Source of the DNA: the human T2T-CHM13v2.0 reference genome, Homo sapiens
DNA length: 64,000 nucleotides
NCBI RefSeq assembly: GCF_009914755.1
Contig: NC_060939.1
Strand: one strand, 5' to 3'
Shown here piece after piece: positions 19,303-25,962 of this stretch. The stretch's first letter is position 1. Each line of letters opens with the position of its first letter. Both the position numbers and the translations under genes were made by a program. The notes beneath the pieces were generated by a model. It searched no databases. It worked only from the letters and a program-made list of their open reading frames with translations, and had not been told where the DNA came from.

Positions 19303-19898
19303 TGAGAGGTGAAGTCAGCTGGACTTCCTGGGTCGAGTGGCGACTTGGAGATTTTTTGTGTCTAGCTGAAGGATTTTAAATGCACCAATCAGCACTCTGT
19401 AAAAACGCACCAATCAGTGCTCTGTGTCTAGCTAAAGGATTGCAAACACACCAATTAGCACTCTGTAAAATGGACCAATCAGCACTCTGTAAAATGGACC
19501 AATTAGCGCTCTGTAAAATGGACCAATCAGCAGGACGTGGGCGGGGTCAAATAAGGGAATAAAAGCTGGCCACCCCCAGCCAGCAGCAGCAACGCGCTGG
19601 GGTCCTCTTCTGTCCCGTGCGTAGTTTGTTATTTCGCTCTTCACGATAAATCTTGCTACTGCTCACGCTTTGGGTCCGCACCACCTTTAAGAGCTGTAAC
19701 ACTCCGTGAGGAGGTCCACGGCTTCGTTTTTGAAGTTAGTGAGACCACGAACCCACTGTCAGGCAGAAACATCTGAAGGAACAAACTTCGGACATAACAT
19801 CTTTAAGAGCTGTAACACTCACTGTGAAGGTAGGCGTGGCTTCATTCCTGAAGTCAGCGAGACAAAGAACCATCCGGAAGGAACCAACTCTGGGCACA
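19303..19898 (+). mobile_element. Solo LTR12 (ERV9; LTR12F-like)
   Basis: TG...CA ends (tgagaggtgaag...ctctgggcaca); tandem ccaatcagcactctgtaaaa units; gagctgtaacactc repeats; near-TSD atat/atgt. Confidence 0.95.
19385..19600 (+). promoter_or_regulatory. LTR12 promoter: six CCAAT (NF-Y) boxes, a GC box and a TATA-like AATAAAA
   Basis: CCAAT at 19385, 19410, 19451, 19475, 19499 and 19523; GGGCGGGG at 19539-19546; AATAAAA at 19558-19564. Confidence 0.75.
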
Positions 19899-22509
19899 AT
19901 GTGATTAATATTTTTTGTGTTGATGTTGTATTCTGTTACTTTGCTGAAGTGACTTTTAGTTCTAGACCTTTATTTTTGTATATTCCTTGGAATATTCTAT
20001 GAAGATGATCATGTCATCTGCAATTGGAGGTAGCCTTATCTTTTCCTTTCTCTTCTGCATGTTTTTGCTTTTCTCTCCTTGCATTATTGCAGCAGATAAA
20101 ACTTCCAATATTATGTTAAATACAAGTGTTGAGAGGCGGAATCCTTGTTTTGCTCCTGATCTTAGAAAGAAAACATTCGGTTTATCACCATTGAGTACAA
20201 TGTCAGCTGTAGGATTTTGTAGGTGTTTTTTATCGAGGTCACTTAGTTCTTCTGTATTCCTAATTTAGGGAGTTTCTAGCATGTGTCAGTACTAAATTTT
20301 GTCAAATTCATTTTTGTGTCATTTCCTTCTTTAGCCTGTTAGCATGGTGGATTACATTAATTGATTGCAAATGTCAAACCCACCTTACATTCCTGGAATG
20401 AATCACACTTGATCACTATTTAAAAATGTTTTTGTACATTTTTGTATTTAATTTGCTAATATTTTGTTGATGGCTTTTGTGTCAAAGTTTATGAAAAACG
20501 TTTGTCTATATTTTTCTTCTTTGGTACTGTTTCTGTCTTGTTTTGGTATCCGCCTTATAAAATGAAGTATGAAGTGTTCCTTTCTCTTCTATTTTCTAGA
20601 AGAAATTGTGTAAAATTTCTGTCAGTTCTTTAAATATTTGGTAGAATTCTCCAGGGAAATGAAGTGGAGCTGCAAGTTGTTTTTTAGGAGCTTTTAAATT
20701 ATGAATTCCATTTTTAAATAGTTTTCTTTACTAGAACCACTTAGATTATCTGTTTCGTGTTGGTTGCATTTTGGTAATTTTTGGTTTTTGAGCAACTGAT
20801 TCATTTTTTCTACATTGTCAAATTTATGAGCATAAAGTTGATTATAATATTCCCTTTCTGCCATTTTAATGGCTGTGGGCTTTGTGGTTAGTTTCATTAC
20901 TGATACTGTTGATTTGTGTCTCTTCTGTTTTAATTTTGCCAGTCTTGCTAGAGTGACATTGATATTTTTGAAGAAGCAGCTTTTTGTTTTATTTTTTCTA
21001 CTTTCCTGTTTTCCGTTTAGTTGATTTCTGCTCTCACCTTTATGATTTCCTTCTGCTTGCTTTGGGTTTCTTTGGCTAATCTTTTTCTAGTTTTTTGAGG
21101 GGAAAAACTTACTGTTTTGAGTCCTTTCTTCTTTTCTAACATAAACGTTTAGGGTTATAAGATCCCCCTCAGCTCTGCATTAGCTACATCCCACATATTT
21201 TGATCTATTGTCTTTTTATTCTTATTCAATTCTATGTGTACTTTTTGAAATTTCCTTGGATCTCCTTCTTGACCATAGACTATTTAAAGGTGTATTATTT
21301 AATTTCAGAGTATCTAGAGATTTTTTTCTGTTGTCTCTCTAGGTCATGTACTTTTAACTTATCACAATCTATTTGTGAATAGTATTGTGAAACTTCATTT
21401 AAAAAGTGTAAGAAACTTACAACAGTGTAATTCTATTTTCCCCTCAATCTGGAGTTGAGCTGGTTTTGGTCTGGGTTGTAGATTTAATTAATTTCAGTTT
21501 ACCACAGGTTTCATATATTTCAAAGGTAGCAGCCAGGGCCCTCCTTTCATTAGGAATAGAGAGCTAAGACTCTGAGGTCTCCCTAAGCTTTCTCGCTCAT
21601 TTCCAGCTTCCCGTACCTTGGAAGAAATCCATGTTGCAGCCTGCCCCGGCTTCCGACTCCACAGGACCTCTCCTTCTGTCTGCCATCCTACCCTGTCCCA
21701 GGTGCCCAGCCATCACTCTGTATTTGAGATGAAATGTCTGAACGAAAAGATTTATGGGGCACGTAGATGAGTGTACTTTGGGGGCGCTTCTGGGTTTGAA
21801 TCCATCACGCCTGGCCTACAGGGTCCTTCTAGATTTCTTTGGTTTCTTTTTGTCTCAGCCAAGAGCCGAGTCCTCCCTGCTTATGGCTGGCTTGTTCTTC
21901 CCACCACACCCCAGAGATAAAAGCAGTTGCAGGTTTTTATTGCTTTGGACAGGCTCGTCCCTCCCTTGAATGTTGTGCGTTTAGACTTCTATGCATTTTC
22001 AGGTCTCTACTGATTGTCACGTGTGATGATTGGAATAAATCAAGATTTCCTCATTGTTATATTGCGAGCAACAGCTTTTTACAACCTTTTACACTCTAAC
22101 AAGAAGCAGAGCTCCCACTATTCTGTTTAACCAGCAAAACCTCTCAGCAACCTCATCTGTCACCCATGGCCTTGGAGTTTGGGAGCTAATGGTTTGGTTT
22201 CCAACATGTTTGAAAAAAATGTCATAATGCCTCCCCCATAATTTTGTCACAAATCGTATCTGTCTTTTCCAAAGTGCTACTCTCAGAAAAAGATACCTCT
22301 ATCTCACAGATACAAAAATTCGGGGAAATCTTAGTTATTCCAACAGGTTGAGTAATTCTACTTTTCTCATTCAAGGCTGGAATTGGACACCTATTAATAT
22401 TAGACCCTCATGTAAGTGGTACCTAAATTCTCACCTCTCCATACATGAATAAGGTCACAACTTTAACTGCTATGTCTTGCTTCAGAAGTTGGGCTAAGTA
22501 GGACTTCCT

Positions 22510-22680
22510 CTAAGTTAAGCACTATTCTGAGCACTTCAACAGACCGAGTCTTTTATAAGACTTACCTATCAACAACCTTATAAGGCAAGTATCATTATAA
22601 TCCCCCTTTCAATGCATAGATACCTTGAGTGATGTGGCTAACGACCCATGGTTAGAAACCGAAGACAGGAAGTGTAGAGT
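22510..22680 (-). mobile_element. MIR fragment
   Basis: aagcactattctgagcactt...caacaaccttataaggcaagtatcattataatcccc. Confidence 0.6.
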
Positions 22681-22695
22681 CAAAGACAATGATCT

Positions 22696-24032: not shown

Positions 24033-24388
24033 AATTGGTTCTCAAAGTGTGATCCCTGGATCACAAAAGGGTGAAAGCAAGATAAAATGGTTTCAGTCTT
24101 TTGGGGGGAAATAAGATAAAATATATTTACATAATAATACTAAGACATTATATGAAATTTTTTTACTCTCATTCTTTCATGAGGATACAGTGGAGCTACC
24201 TAAAGGTGTAAATGCTCTGATGCCTAAGGAAATGAATACTTGCATTCTTGTGTTTCAAAACTTTTTTAGCTTTAATTTCTTATATAGAAAAAATTAATAA
24301 ATGCAACCCAAATGAAATAAATCTCTTTGGAACTTCAATAATTTTAGGAGAGTAAGAGATTCCTAAAACCGAAAAAGAGAAACATTGA
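24033..24388. mobile_element. hAT-Charlie non-autonomous DNA element
   Basis: Ends ...tggttctcaaagtgtg and gagaaacattg resemble Charlie TIRs; internal cataataatactaagac motif. Confidence 0.6.
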
Positions 24389-24464
24389 TGTAGTTTGCTG
24401 TTTAGTACATTTATAAATTTTACTTAAGTGATATTTGGTGACTTGCTTTTTAAATTCAACATTC

Positions 24465-25129
24465 CGTTGAGGTCTATCCCGATAGGTCTTTTCCTGTAGC
24501 CTGCACGTTGTTGGAAATGCCTCATAGAGTAACTCTGTGATTTTACTTTACTTACAGGACTATTGTTACATCTGTGGGAAGGAACCACAAGACAGTTGCT
24601 GAAGTATGAAAAAGACAGTTACTAAACTGTCTTTAGTTCAGTAACTGTCTTAGTAAAGACCTGATAATTTACTTTTTTACCTTAGGTATTGGCATATTCC
24701 ACACATCTGTACTATTCTTGAATTTGATCACTTAGGAACGAATATGATTGGAACTCATTCATGTTTAGAGAGGGTGTCAAATTGAGAACCAGGCAGATCC
24801 ACCTACACTAAAAATGACCCTAAAGTAAATTGGTGGAAGAAATCAGATCCCAAAGACTACTGGTGAATTTTGAAGTCTTCGTCAGTATATCCATATTAAA
24901 AGGAGATGACAGAAGCCAAAATAAAAGAATTATGGGTTGACAGGACAACTGGATTAAAATAAATGTCAGTTTCATTTGAAAGGGCTAACTTGAAGGTAAT
25001 TTTTGAAAATAAATTTTGACTCCAGCTCTTCAGAGGATCTAAAGTGACCTTGATGGGCAGTGGAAGAAATCAAAACATGAAATTCCTTGAATAAAAATTT
25101 ATTGACTTTACAAAATAAGTAAATAAATG
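24465..25129 (+). pseudogene. snoRNA retroposon: snoRNA, downstream intron remainder, spliced host (TAF1D-like) 3' exons and poly(A)
   Basis: TSD aattcaac(a/c)ttc at 24453-24464 and 25130-25141 after a tttt/aaa L1 EN site; branch-like ctgAt, pyrimidine tract and AG at 24661-24685; AATAAA at 25090-25095; decayed A-tail at 25112-25128. Confidence 0.85.
24466..24597 (+). ncRNA. SNORA18: SNORA18 (ACA18)-like H/ACA snoRNA retrocopy, 132 nt
   Basis: Closely matches the recalled SNORA18 sequence; two hairpins (tgaggt/gcctca; tgtgatt/aaccaca and cttacagg/tctgtggg); H box AGAGTA at 24526-24531; ACA at 24592-24594, three nt from the end. Confidence 0.9.
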
Positions 25130-25962
25130 AATTCAACCTTCTCTCGCTAAGTTAGTGTATGAAAGTGGGTACACATTAGACTGAGCTCATTCCTTTCAGC
25201 TGTTTATACTGTTATAAAATAGTTTCAAAAAGCGGAAAATACCTGCTCTTCAAAGTTTTTGGAGCATGTGACTTTATAAAGCATATGCATTTGATCACCT
25301 TCCCAAATGCCTTTCTTGTGCCAATGAATAATACATTTGCTTCACAATTGAAGTAATATACCCTCCTGCTCTGCTTCCTATCCTATTGCCAAATTCAGTG
25401 ACTGAATGGGCATTTTCATATTCAGTCCCCTAACTATGACCTCTCGATTTTACAGAGAAGCTTAATCCCGGTTAGTCTCATTCTCTCACTGGGGATTCTC
25501 TGTTTCCTTGAGGGGCCTCTGAGATGAGAACAGCTTTGCAAGGACTGGGAACCTGTGATGAGCATAGTGTTGGAAACACTTGAGGCCTTTGTTCTTCCAG
25601 AGTAGACATCTCCAACTCCCAGGGACCCCTGCTTTCCCTCTGTCCCTGAATGCTGATTATGGGTCATGAGATTATGTAACAGACAGTTCATACCCTCTGC
25701 ATGCAATTTTTTCCTACATATTTTGTTAGGGAAAAAATAAAATATACACAGTAGAGAGACTAGTATACTAGTAATCTAGTGTACTAATAACCTAGCTTCA
25801 AAATTGCCAACACATGGTCCATCTTGTTTCATTCATTTCTTCACCCACTCCACACTCTCCCCACTGCGTTATTTTTAGTCAATTAGTAGACATCATACAT
25901 AAATCCTACAGTACTTGTCTCCGAAACACATTGATTCTTTTTTAGAAAACATAACTGCCGGG

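What the first reader, a model, noticed from the sequence alone, without database searches (positions are those of the whole stretch)
19303..25141. Candidate self-assembled snoRNA host gene: LTR12 promoter and donor, SNORA18 retrocopy, and its own acceptor, last exon and poly(A) signal
Seen in sequence, all on the + strand and in working order: an LTR12 promoter (six CCAAT, GC box, TATA-like box); a donor AAG|GTAGGC at 19829/19830 inside the LTR; an intact H/ACA snoRNA at 24466-24597; a branch-like ctgAt, pyrimidine tract and AG 88 nt downstream (24685); a ~430-nt terminal exon; and AATAAA at 25090. Established: vertebrate H/ACA snoRNAs are processed from Pol II introns, and LTR12 elements are NF-Y-dependent promoters active in testis and induced by HDAC/DNMT inhibitors. 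Inference: two independent retro-insertions built a two-exon non-coding host gene, so this snoRNA paralog could be tissue- or drug-inducible instead of co-regulated with its parental host.
Basis: partly seen in the sequence, partly recalled or inferred. Interest (0 to 1): 0.85.

Follow-up and report, generated by a model that had tools for sequence, protein, structure and literature searches.

The report
Old LTR upstream of snoRNA retrocopy
A real, roughly 30-million-year-old solo LTR of the ERV9/LTR12 group lies 4.6 kb upstream of a retro-copied SNORA18 gene that brought its splice acceptor, exons and poly(A) signal from its parent gene TAF1D, so the two could form a small host gene, but nothing here shows they are transcribed together.

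Summary
The virus remnant is real. It is a complete solo LTR (19303-19897) with TG..CA ends and a 4-bp duplication, inserted in an older repeat. It is a short ERV9/LTR12-type LTR without the hominoid 5' extension, and is about 30 My old or more. No viral gene is present. The snoRNA (24466-24597, Rfam 123.5 bits) is the head of a Weber "Type-3 snoRNA retroposon" (24453-25142). This consists of SNORA18, the rest of its TAF1D intron, seven already-spliced TAF1D exons, the parental poly(A) signal, an A-rich tail and a 13-bp duplication. So the acceptor, "last exon" and AATAAA are inherited from TAF1D. The retrocopy is about 20-30 My old and is one of six such copies in the genome. Its snoRNA keeps both boxes but has four broken stem pairs and shows no sign of constraint. 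It is very probably the published SNORA18L5 (15q13.3). A joint transcription unit is plausible: the strands match, the homologous start site maps to 19588, the LTR is unusually CpG-rich, and it departs from its own poly(A) hexamer. It is not shown: RefSeq has no transcript, and the interval holds 16 competing acceptor-like sites.

The parts
19299..19302 (.). Left target-site duplication of the LTR (ATAT).
   Evidence: The right copy, ATGT at 19898-19901, matches at 3 of 4. The flanks are contiguous in other copies of the surrounding old repeat, with about 4-5 nt in excess.
19303..19897 (+). Complete solo LTR, ERV9/LTR12 group, short form without the 5' extension, with TG..CA ends. No retroviral gene is present.
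   Evidence: 83 matches from 40 scored of 4192 first-look candidates, with full-length 1-595 hits at 78-86% identity; homology ends at the same bounds in the relatives; it aligns to the LTR at the IRGM promoter (73.7% over 555 nt, E 6e-87) and to the GBP2 LTR12C (70% over 369 nt, E 2e-42).
19357..19532 (+). U3 tandem repeats (E-element-like) carrying the six CCAAT boxes.
   Evidence: The print description of E elements and the NF-Y CCAAT is in PMC11853044, section 5.
19539..19590 (+). Core promoter: GC box 19539-19546, AATAAAA 19558-19564, start-site 12-mer 19579-19590. The homologous start site is 19588.
   Evidence: The RefSeq 5' end of IRGM, which lies inside its LTR12, aligns with window 19588, 30 nt after the start of AATAAAA.
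19645..19650 (+). Place of the LTR's own R-region poly(A) hexamer. It is not canonical in this copy.
   Evidence: 23 of 29 relatives carry the canonical hexamer here. The window copy departs at one of six positions, and 0 of 29 relatives share that base.
19682..19871 (+). Two U5 repeat units (B-element-like), 19682-19753 and 19798-19871.
   Evidence: 77% identity over 74 nt. Print gives 72-bp B elements.
19827..19835 (+). Candidate splice donor AAG|GTAGGC in the second U5 unit.
   Evidence: positions -3 to +2 are shared by 26-29 of 29 relatives, while +3 and +4 are each shared by 1 of 29. It fits 7 of 9 consensus positions, against 4-6 in the 29 relatives.
19830..24685 (+). Interval that would be the intron (4856 nt). 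It contains old repeat sequence and two masked repeats at 22693-23005 and 23337-23634, which I recognise as sense Alus.
   Evidence: The Alu name is my recollection and comes from no tool.
24453..24465 (.). Left target-site duplication of the snoRNA retroposon (AATTCAACATTCC).
   Evidence: It matches 25130-25142 at 11 of 13 positions.
24466..24597 (+). SNORA18 retrocopy (RefSeq LOC124900362), very probably the published SNORA18L5.
   Evidence: The reviews place SNORA18L5 in a gene-free 15q13.3 duplication.
24598..24685 (+). Retro-copied remainder of the TAF1D intron, ending in the inherited acceptor. It is 88 nt against 68 nt in the parent, with a 21-nt insertion in the copy.
   Evidence: the 27 nt around the AG are identical to the parent. 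One search places the parental exon start with AG before it.
24686..25109 (+). Seven processed TAF1D exons, with six introns removed (one is GC-AG in the parent).
25090..25095 (+). AATAAA, inherited from the proximal poly(A) signal of TAF1D.
   Evidence: the chromosome 3 copy carries the same hexamer. The parent now reads AATAAC at this place.
25110..25129 (+). Decayed A-rich tail of the retroposon.
25130..25142 (.). Right target-site duplication of the snoRNA retroposon (AATTCAACCTTCT).

Best explanation
SHOWN (about 0.95): two unrelated retro-insertions lie on the same strand, 4.6 kb apart.

1. A complete solo LTR of the ERV9/LTR12 group, of the short form without the hominoid 5' extension, integrated into an older dispersed repeat about 30 My ago or earlier.
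2. A Type-3 snoRNA retroposon copied by the L1 machinery about 20-30 My ago. Its template was a TAF1D RNA that began exactly at the 5' end of SNORA18, kept the rest of that intron, had its six downstream introns spliced out, and was polyadenylated at a proximal site. The acceptor, the exon block and the AATAAA therefore came ready-made from TAF1D.

INFERRED (about 0.4-0.45): together they form a latent, conditionally used transcription unit.
- The LTR is normally silenced. Where LTR12-type promoters open (germ line, HBV-related liver tumours, epigenetic drugs), it would start near 19588.
- Transcription would run past the LTR's own weakened poly(A) hexamer.
- The donor at 19829/30 could be joined to the inherited acceptor at 24685/86, which leaves the snoRNA in an intron from which an H/ACA snoRNP can be trimmed out.
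- The transcript would end near 25109.

This is the most economical source for the published SNORA18L5 RNA. The snoRNA itself looks unconstrained, so the unit is an accident that can be used, not an adapted gene.
For: Structure of the LTR:
- Bounds and relatives.
- Insertion into a repeat whose other copies are uninterrupted.
- Homology to the IRGM and GBP2 LTR12 loci named in print.
- Five relatives are followed, and four preceded, by shared internal sequence.
- Sixteen of 27 loci with the same primer-binding 15-mer have this LTR type just upstream.
- The primer site matches tRNA-Arg genes at 17 of 18; the best tRNA-Trp match is 15 of 18.

Structure of the retroposon:
- Seven colinear blocks on TAF1D, with AG..GT (one GC) at every parental exon bound.
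- TSD at 11 of 13 and an A-rich tail.
- It fits the Type-3 snoRT class (PMC1687206 passages).

Function (indirect only):
- Same strand.
- The printed promoter layout is kept. AATAAAA is identical in 27 of 29 relatives, the GC box is kept, and there are six CCAAT.
- The 5' end of IRGM maps to 19588.
- The LTR core is one of only three CpG-island-like 300-nt stretches in the 64 kb, and the only one upstream of the snoRNA.
- It holds 22 CpG against 3-15 in the matched stretches of 29 of 29 relatives. It keeps 12 of 27 old CpG sites, against a median of 0.26 and a maximum of 11 of 27. This is what long-term germ-line hypomethylation would leave.
- The donor is private-improved, and the LTR's own poly(A) hexamer is not canonical.
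- The acceptor context is identical to a working TAF1D acceptor.
- According to reviews of a paper I could not read, SNORA18L5 RNA tracks copy number of a gene-free 15q13.3 duplication and H3K4me3 at 'its promoter'.
- LTR promoters are widely activated in HBV-related liver tumours (PMC4665003 passages).
Against: - RefSeq RS_2025_08 has no transcript, promoter or CAGE element between OTUD7A and CHRNA7 apart from the cmsearch snoRNA.
- The start-site 12-mer equals the printed LTR12C motif at only 10 of 12 positions and does not keep its inverted repeat. Print says unexpressed LTR12C often lack that site. However, 11 of 29 relatives share the window's form, and the working IRGM LTR also lacks the inverted repeat.
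- The review states that LTRs do not usually contain splice sites and that the known ERV9 splice sites lie outside the LTR.
- The interval holds 16 AG sites with better pyrimidine tracts and 4 AATAAA.
- The activity described in print is mainly for LTR12C/D/E, which carry the 5' extension that this copy lacks.
- The snoRNA shows no constraint: 10 of 132 differences against an own-line 0.044 in its flank. Its helices are weakened.
- CpG richness puts the copy only just above the best relative at old sites (12 against 11 of 27). Part of it is private CpGs, which biased gene conversion in this recombination-rich region could also produce.
- About 5000 LTR12 elements exist. By my own rough estimate, not from any call, one of them lying in sense within 5 kb of one of the several hundred snoRNA retrocopies is expected by chance.
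Confidence: 0.42

Rival explanations
1. Inert juxtaposition. The LTR is a silenced fossil that never drives this block, and the SNORA18 copy is a decaying pseudogene. Reported SNORA18L5 signals would come from tumour-specific copy gain with background transcription, or partly from cross-detection of the 92% identical parental SNORA18.
For: - No RefSeq transcript or CAGE element.
- No constraint on the snoRNA, with 4 broken pairs. The minimum-energy fold is not the double hairpin, z is -0.69, and 49 of 200 shuffles fold as well.
- Such a neighbourhood is expected by chance, by my own estimate.
- None of the other five copies lies in sense within an annotated gene: chromosome 3 and X copies are antisense to their genes, the chromosome 5 copy is opposite a lncRNA, and two are intergenic. 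Silent copies are therefore the rule.
Against: - The reviews report that expression is proportional to the copy number of this locus, which argues for locus-specific RNA.
- The CpG richness of the LTR relative to 29 of 29 relatives is not expected for a long-methylated fossil.
- Ten copy-specific positions allow specific detection.
Confidence: 0.33
2. The snoRNA is transcribed, but from another promoter. It would ride on an unannotated long transcript or read-through, for instance divergent transcription from the OTUD7A promoter about 57 kb upstream, or enhancer-associated RNA. The LTR would act at most as an enhancer or not at all.
For: - The window lies 33 kb beyond the OTUD7A 5' end, on the opposite strand to that gene, and an H3K4me1 hESC enhancer sits at window 1149-1650.
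- LTR12 elements also act as enhancers (headings of the review).
- The inherited acceptor could be used by any upstream donor.
Against: - No such transcript is annotated.
- Within the 24.4 kb of the window upstream of the snoRNA, the LTR core is the only CpG-island-like stretch.
- Sequence farther upstream than the window start was not examined.
Confidence: 0.2

Closest known systems
Type-3 snoRNA retroposons (snoRTs), Weber 2006, PLoS Genet 2:e205 (PMC1687206; passages read)
   Same: It starts at the mature 5' end of the snoRNA. It contains the whole downstream intron part, the processed 3' exons, a poly(A)-derived tail and a TSD. That paper already notes that such blocks are delimited by an acceptor and a poly(A) signal and can help build new transcription units.
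   Different: ACA18/SNORA18 is not mentioned in that paper's main text (0 occurrences), and its supplements were closed. Here six copies of very different ages derive from one RNA form, and this one lies behind a sense LTR.
LTR12/ERV9 solo LTRs used as promoters of host genes (IRGM, GBP2, GBP5, DHRS2, SEMA4D and others; review PMC11853044, sections 4, 5, 7 and 10 read)
   Same: CCAAT-bearing U3 repeats, a GC box and AATAAAA about 30 nt before the start site, and U5 repeat units. There is direct sequence homology to the IRGM and GBP2 LTRs, and the IRGM 5' end maps to window 19588.
   Different: This is the short form without the ~600-bp 5' extension of LTR12C/D/E that print links to promoter use. 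The start-site inverted repeat is not kept. The downstream partner would be a retrocopy and not a resident gene. Use is not shown.
5' snoRNA-capped, 3' polyadenylated RNAs: SPA lncRNAs (PMC12084880, abstract start in the search listing), and the 5'-truncated, dyskerin-bound, cytoplasmic H/ACA-retaining transcripts of EIF4A1 and TAF1D (PMC9394076, passages)
   Same: The RNA that was reverse-transcribed here had exactly this form: a snoRNA at the 5' end, spliced downstream exons and a poly(A) tail. TAF1D is named among genes that make such transcripts today.
   Different: Those are living RNAs. This is the DNA fossil of one. I did not see which TAF1D snoRNA heads the published isoforms (SNORA18 has 0 occurrences).
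SNORA18L5 (Cao et al. 2018, Gastroenterology 155:542; not held; known to me only through reviews PMC9454744, PMC6629867 and PMC11308251, passages)
   Same: It is a SNORA18-like H/ACA snoRNA in a protein-gene-free duplication at 15q13.3. This copy is the only SNORA18 match above the Rfam cut-off between OTUD7A and CHRNA7. The second chromosome 15 match lies 2.7 Mb distal and scores below the cut-off.
   Different: The identity is inferred, because no coordinates were seen and RefSeq calls the gene LOC124900362. The passages I read name no host gene or LTR.

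Membership tests
ERV9 / LTR12 long terminal repeat | U3 tandem repeats (E elements, about 41 bp) carrying CCAAT (print; CCAAT kept in all 7 subfamilies). | tested here: met
   TRF finds periods of 24-25 and 66 at 19357-19532. There are six CCAAT on the + strand. The 29 relatives hold 4-9, median 6.
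ERV9 / LTR12 long terminal repeat | An Sp1/GC box directly upstream of an AATAAAA box that lies about 30 nt before the start site. | tested here: met
   19539-19546 and 19558-19564. The homologous start is at 19588, exactly 30 nt after the start of the box.
ERV9 / LTR12 long terminal repeat | The start-site motif with the inverted repeat described for LTR12C. | tested here: not met
   It equals the printed motif at 10 of 12 positions and the inverted repeat is not kept. Only 4 of 29 relatives keep it, and 11 of 29 are identical to the window. This is a subfamily trait, and the IRGM LTR also lacks it.
ERV9 / LTR12 long terminal repeat | U5 repeat units (B elements, 72 bp). | tested here: met
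   Two units, 19682-19753 and 19798-19871, at 77% over 74 nt. Relatives carry one to three.
ERV9 / LTR12 long terminal repeat | Sequence homology to loci that print names as LTR12. | tested here: met
   IRGM promoter LTR: 73.7% over 555 nt, E 6e-87. GBP2 LTR12C: 70% over 369 nt, E 2e-42. There was no match in the 5.5 kb fetched at DHRS2.
ERV9 / LTR12 long terminal repeat | Retroviral LTR hallmarks: TG..CA ends, a short TSD, and relatives that flank proviruses with a tRNA primer site. | tested here: met
   TG and CA ends, and a TSD matching at 3 of 4. Five 5'-type and four 3'-type relatives among 29. The primer site matches tRNA-Arg at 17 of 18, with 23 of the 37 listed Arg/Trp genes tested. 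Print finds the Arg type in HERV-9 and HERV-W and calls it weakly diagnostic.
LTR12C / D / E subfamilies | A ~600-bp 5' extension and a length of about 1.2-1.5 kb. | tested here: not met
   The LTR is 595 bp. Homology of most relatives stops at its 5' end. It therefore belongs to a short form (LTR12, LTR12_, LTR12B or LTR12F). Which one could not be settled, because no repeat library was available.
ERV9 / LTR12 long terminal repeat | Placement of the associated pol (core gene) within the HERV9 clade. | not tested
   The element here is a solo LTR. I fetched no proviral interior on purpose and translated none.
Type-3 snoRNA retroposon | Starts at the mature 5' end of the snoRNA. | tested here: met
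   Homology to the parent and to four of the five other copies begins at or within one base of 24466. The X copy starts at model position 26 and the second chromosome 15 copy at 48.
Type-3 snoRNA retroposon | [quoted passage not shown] | tested here: met
   Seven colinear blocks. Six parental introns are absent, and every parental exon bound has AG..GT (one GC).
Type-3 snoRNA retroposon | A poly(A)-derived tail and a target-site duplication. | tested here: met
   A-rich stretch at 25110-25129. The TSD at 24453-24465 and 25130-25142 matches at 11 of 13.
H/ACA snoRNA SNORA18 (RF00425) | Covariance-model score above the curated cut-off, an H box, and ACA 3 nt from the 3' end. | tested here: met
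   123.5 bits against a cut-off of 70. The parent scores 147.7 and the chromosome 5 copy 131.2. The boxes are at 24526-24531 and 24592-24594.
H/ACA snoRNA SNORA18 (RF00425) | Two stable hairpins and guide pockets matching the rRNA target. | tested here: inconclusive
   Each half still folds as a hairpin, but more weakly (-14.2 and -11.5 against -22.8 and -17.8 kcal/mol), and 4 pairs are broken. The target of SNORA18 was not found in print, so the pockets were not tested.
snoRNA host gene (a working Pol II unit with the snoRNA in an intron) | An observed start site, splice junction, 3' end and mature snoRNA from this locus. | not testable with these tools
RefSeq has no transcript here. Published expression of SNORA18L5 is known to me only through reviews.

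The most novel reading that the evidence does not exclude
A solo ERV9 LTR has stayed unusually CpG-rich, that is germ-line unmethylated, because it has long worked as the promoter of a snoRNA host gene. Every working part of that gene comes from two retro-insertions: the promoter, first exon and donor from the LTR, and the snoRNA, acceptor, last exon and poly(A) signal from a fossilised 5'-snoRNA-capped TAF1D RNA. This LTR would be the unnamed 'promoter' of the liver-cancer risk snoRNA SNORA18L5, which would tie that locus to the known awakening of LTR promoters in HBV-related tumours.
Probability: 0.2. Interest if true: 0.7.

Novelty: new member of a known kind. Interest (0 to 1): 0.4.

Why it matters
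Intergenic snoRNA retrocopies are normally silent because they lack a host transcript. SNORA18L5 is nevertheless reported as expressed and as a liver-cancer risk factor at 15q13.3, and the passages I could read name no host gene.

If the LTR is its promoter, expression would follow the rules of LTR12 elements: germ line, tumours and epigenetic drugs. It would not follow those of ribosome-biogenesis genes such as TAF1D. The risk duplication would then have to include the LTR to act.

Separately, the six SNORA18 retroposons, with own-line divergence from about 0.01 to 0.16, are a fossil record. They show that a snoRNA-capped, spliced, polyadenylated TAF1D RNA has been available to the L1 machinery for tens of millions of years. 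That fits the dyskerin-bound cytoplasmic TAF1D transcripts seen today.

If the unit is not transcribed, the finding is an ordinary neighbourhood of two annotated repeat types.

Tried and rejected
- **Bacterial-type promoter and terminator scan of the LTR.** It has no bearing on a Pol II promoter, so I ignored it.
- **Pfam scan of 8 ORF pieces of the repeat around the LTR.** It found 0 families. The surrounding repeat is therefore named by no tool. My reading that it is an old LINE-1 3' part is recollection only. Its repeat nature rests (43 matches, 40 scored of 2321 candidates, 66-78% identity).
- **Exact search for a tRNA gene matching the primer-site 15-mer.** There were 27 places and ARAGORN found no tRNA gene in any of them. 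I replaced this by direct comparison with 23 annotated tRNA-Arg and tRNA-Trp genes. The first script was off by one base and its numbers are void. slides the window and its numbers stand.
- **Naming the exact LTR12 subfamily.** I tried to tie the LTR to a print-named LTR12F locus on the Y chromosome. I dropped this because it needed hg38 coordinates that I only recall. The HERV-K102-adjacent LTR12F could not be placed because the gene table does not list that provirus. The subfamily is left open.
- **Absolute dating of the LTR from pairwise distances.** The star-tree estimate is 0.085 at non-CpG sites and 0.138 at all sites. At a recalled rate of 2.2e-9 per site per year, that gives 39-63 My. 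This exceeds the printed age of the family (about 30 My or somewhat more), so I treat it as an upper bound inflated by subfamily diversity. Only 15 of the 29 relatives covered the whole core and entered that estimate.
- **Target of SNORA18.** One paper was listed and I did not open it, so the guide pockets were not tested.
- **Rejected: LTR truncated from a long LTR12C.** Relatives end at the same 5' bound.
- **Rejected: the acceptor and poly(A) signal arose locally.** They are parental.
- **Rejected: the six snoRNA copies are segmental duplicates.** Their flanks share nothing but Alu-like repeats, and their ages differ.
- **Print searches for an LTR-driven snoRNA host gene at this locus.**
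  - One search found 54 papers with SNORA18L5, and I read passages in 3.
  - One search listed 15 papers, all with 0 occurrences of 'snoRNA host gene'.
  - One search listed 12 papers, none of which holds SNORA18L5 together with OTUD7A, CHRNA7 or chr15.

  I found no such report. This is a limited search, and Cao et al. 2018 itself was not readable.
- **Supplements were closed and I asked for none.** Weber's Figures S1-S3 and tables may list the ACA18 copies. Supplemental Table S3 of PMC4665003 may list this LTR among activated promoters.

Full report
**1. The observation**

- Six CCAAT lie on the + strand between 19385 and 19527, out of 146 in the whole window on both strands.
- They sit in tandem repeats of period 24-25 and 66. 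The cluster is a repeat array and not six independent boxes.
- The GC box (19539-19546), AATAAAA (19558-19564), the donor AAG|GTAGGC (19829/30), the AG at 24684-85 and the AATAAA at 25090-95 are all present.
- Rfam finds one family in the 64 kb: SNORA18 at 24466-24597 on the + strand, full length, at 123.5 bits against a cut-off of 70.
- RefSeq annotates only that snoRNA (by cmsearch) between OTUD7A and CHRNA7. It has no lncRNA, promoter or CAGE element there.

**2. The virus remnant: real, and of what family**

- A genome search with 19303-19897 gave 83 matches from 40 scored of 4192 first-look candidates. These include full-length 1-595 alignments at 78-86% identity.
- Among 29 fetched relatives, shared homology ends at the window's own bounds in most.
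- Five relatives are followed by more than 1.2 kb of shared sequence, which marks them as 5' LTRs. Four are preceded by more than 0.6 kb, which marks them as 3' LTRs.
- Relatives differ in the number of U3 and U5 repeat units.
- The element starts with TG and ends with CA, and is flanked by ATAT and ATGT.
- Its two flanks are contiguous in other copies of an old dispersed repeat (66-78% identity), with about 4-5 nt in excess here. It is therefore a true integration, now a solo LTR. The window holds no retroviral gene, so there are no breaks to count.

Family:
- The layout fits the printed description of LTR12 (PMC11853044, section 5). That description is CCAAT-bearing U3 repeats, a GC box directly before an AATAAAA box, a start site about 30 nt further on, and U5 repeat units of about 72 bp.
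- Here there are two U5 units, 19682-19753 and 19798-19871, at 77% identity.
- The LTR aligns directly with two LTRs that print names as LTR12. One is at the IRGM promoter (73.7% over 555 nt, E 6e-87). The other is the LTR12C upstream of GBP2 (70% over 369 nt, E 2e-42). There was no match in the stretch fetched at DHRS2.
- Proviral relatives carry a primer-binding site that matches tRNA-Arg genes at 17 of 18 positions. The best tRNA-Trp match is 15 of 18. Twenty-three of the 37 annotated Arg and Trp genes were tested.
- Sixteen of 27 genomic places with the same primer-site 15-mer have this LTR type ending 8-25 nt upstream. The reversed-pattern control gave 4 places.
- Print reports the Arg type for HERV-9 and HERV-W and warns that it is weakly diagnostic (PMC6995185).
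- The LTR lacks the ~600-bp 5' extension of LTR12C/D/E. It is therefore a short form (LTR12, LTR12_, LTR12B or LTR12F). Without a repeat library I could not say which.

**3. Age of the LTR**

- I made no consensus and used pairwise K2P distances only.
- Over the non-repeated core (19533-19802), against the 15 of 29 relatives that cover it, the window copy's own branch under a star tree is 0.138 at all sites and 0.085 outside CpG. The relatives average 0.095 and 0.081.
- At a recalled neutral rate of 2.2e-9 per site per year this gives 39-63 My. That is an upper bound, because a star tree counts subfamily diversity as age.
- Print puts the entry of ERV9 at about 30 My or somewhat more, with integrants shared by human and macaque. 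It puts the 5'-extended forms about 10 My later.
- My estimate is about 30-40 My, which is catarrhine in age.

**4. What the snoRNA block really is**

- The genome holds seven SNORA18 matches. The parent lies in TAF1D on chromosome 11 (147.7 bits). The others are on chromosomes 5, 15 (this one), 3, 15 (distal), 6 and X.
- Homology between this copy and the others runs from 24466 to about 25116-25119 and then stops. The flanks share only Alu-like repeats.
- Against the TAF1D locus the block aligns in seven colinear pieces. The first piece is the snoRNA, the remaining 68 nt of its intron and the next exon, all contiguous. The following six exons have their introns removed. Those introns host SNORD5, SNORA8, SNORA1, SNORD6, SNORA32 and SNORA25.
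- Every parental exon bound has AG before it and GT (once GC) after it.
- The 27 nt around the acceptor are identical to the parent.
- The AATAAA at 25090 is the ancestral proximal TAF1D signal. The chromosome 3 copy has the same hexamer, while the parent now reads AATAAC and is annotated as ending 131 nt further on.
- A decayed A-rich tail (25110-25129) and a 13-nt duplication matching at 11 of 13 (24453-24465 and 25130-25142) close the element.

This is exactly Weber's Type-3 snoRNA retroposon. That paper also remarks that such blocks carry an acceptor and a poly(A) signal and can take part in new transcription units (PMC1687206).

The template was a 5'-snoRNA-ended, spliced, polyadenylated TAF1D RNA.
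- This is the form of SPA lncRNAs.
- It is also the form of the 5'-truncated, dyskerin-bound, cytoplasmic H/ACA-retaining TAF1D transcripts described in PMC9394076.

**5. Age and state of the retrocopy**

- Three-point K2P estimates put the copy's own line at 0.050 (0.043-0.053 with five different third sequences). That is about 20-33 My at 1.5-2.5e-9 per site per year.
- The other copies range from about 0.01-0.03 (X) through 0.047 (chromosome 3) and 0.087 (chromosome 5) to about 0.15 (chromosome 6 and distal chromosome 15). The same RNA form was therefore retro-copied repeatedly over a long time.
- The LTR probably came first. This order is inferred and not shown.
- Within this copy the snoRNA differs from the parent at 10 of 132 positions, while its flank has an own-line 0.044. 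Five of the ten are assignable to this copy's line and none to the parent's. There is no sign of purifying selection.
- Nine of the ten differences fall in stems. Four break pairs.
- The copy scores -28.8 kcal/mol on the parental structure, against -39.5 for the parent. Its free minimum-energy fold is not the double hairpin (z -0.69, against -2.13 for the parent). Each half still folds as a weaker hairpin, and the H and ACA boxes are kept.

**6. Is it a known gene?**

- Reviews describe SNORA18L5 as an H/ACA snoRNA inside a low-frequency duplication at 15q13.3 that contains no protein gene. Its RNA is said to be proportional to copy number and raised with H3K4me3 at 'its promoter'.
- This copy is the only SNORA18 match above the cut-off between OTUD7A and CHRNA7. 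It is very probably SNORA18L5.
- I saw no coordinates, and the primary paper is not held.

**7. Could the two parts work together?**

For:
- The strands match and the parts are 4.6 kb apart.
- The promoter layout is kept. AATAAAA is identical in 27 of 29 relatives, and the start-site 12-mer is identical in 11 of 29.
- The RefSeq 5' end of IRGM, which lies inside its LTR12, aligns with window 19588.
- The donor's AAG|GT is family-wide (26-29 of 29). Its +3 and +4 bases are private (1 of 29 each) and raise its fit to 7 of 9, against 4-6 in the relatives.
- The LTR's own R-region poly(A) hexamer is canonical in 23 of 29 relatives and not in this copy.
- The acceptor is a proven TAF1D acceptor.
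- The LTR core is one of only three CpG-island-like 300-nt stretches in the 64 kb, and the only one upstream of the snoRNA.
- It holds 22 CpG, against 3-15 in the matched stretches of all 29 relatives. It keeps 12 of 27 old CpG sites, against a median share of 0.26 and a maximum of 11 of 27.
- LTR promoters are widely activated in HBV-related liver tumours (PMC4665003).

Against:
- There is no annotated transcript.
- The LTR12C-type start-site inverted repeat is absent, although the working IRGM LTR lacks it too.
- The review says known ERV9 splice sites lie outside the LTR.
- The interval holds 16 competing AG sites and four AATAAA.
- Print ties promoter use mainly to the 5'-extended subfamilies.
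- The snoRNA looks unconstrained.
- The CpG excess at old sites is only marginally above the best relative.
- By my own rough estimate, a sense LTR12 near one of many snoRNA retrocopies is expected by chance.

**8. Verdict**

- The structural account is secure. It describes two ordinary, already described kinds of retro-insertion.
- The host-gene reading is a reasonable, testable hypothesis, which I put at about 0.4. It would give SNORA18L5 a promoter. It rests on sequence alone.
- Supplements of Weber 2006 and of PMC4665003, and the paper of Cao et al., could bear on it and were not visible to me.

Noticed in passing
window 24466-25142; L002 (chr5), L004 (chr3), L005 (chr15 distal), L006 (chr6), L007 (chrX): Six retro-copies of one and the same RNA form (SNORA18 at the 5' end, then spliced TAF1D exons, then a poly(A) tail). 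Own-line divergence runs from about 0.01 to 0.16. The chromosome 3 copy runs on to the distal TAF1D poly(A) site, and the X copy is 5'-truncated and interrupted by an Alu-like repeat.
   Followed up: partly
L038 (G000:C11:93646300-93650300, minus strand), at the place matching window 25090-25095: The proximal TAF1D poly(A) hexamer used by the retro-copied RNA now reads AATAAC in the parent, while the window and chromosome 3 copies keep AATAAA. The parent seems to have weakened this site after the copies were made. Its annotated end lies 131 nt further on.
   Followed up: partly
G000:C11:93650055-93650145 (MIR1304), against SNORA18 at 93649847-93649978: In the parent intron a microRNA gene lies 77 nt upstream of SNORA18. 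Cleavage of that hairpin could be one way to make the snoRNA-headed RNA. This is speculation, and the older copies may predate the microRNA.
   Followed up: no
window 19303-19897: The LTR is much richer in CpG than all 29 relatives examined (22 against 3-15). About eight of its CpGs are at places where almost no relative has CG, TG or CA in the usual mix. Germ-line hypomethylation or biased gene conversion could explain this, and it remains unexplained.
   Followed up: partly
window 24607-24640, about 24955-24965 and about 24985-25000: There are three small insertions or duplications in the retrocopy relative to TAF1D: 21 nt in the intron tail, which lengthens the snoRNA-to-acceptor distance from 68 to 88 nt, and about 11 and 13 nt in the exon block.
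   Followed up: no
window 24661-24665: The branch-like ctgat is private to this copy. The parent reads differently at its second position, so the fit to the branch consensus arose after retro-copying.
   Followed up: no
window 17800-19302 and 19898-21300: The LTR sits inside an old dispersed repeat (2321 first-look candidates, 66-78% identity). No tool named it, and eight ORF pieces gave no Pfam family.
   Followed up: partly
window 1149-1650: RefSeq lists an H3K4me1 hESC enhancer here, 18 kb upstream of the LTR. It is the only functional element annotated in the window.
   Followed up: no
G000:C7:23993875-24000902 and C7:83888801-83897129: There are two places where a 3'-type LTR relative and a primer-site match lie 7-8 kb apart on one strand. 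They are probably proviruses of this LTR type. I did not fetch or read their interiors.
   Followed up: no
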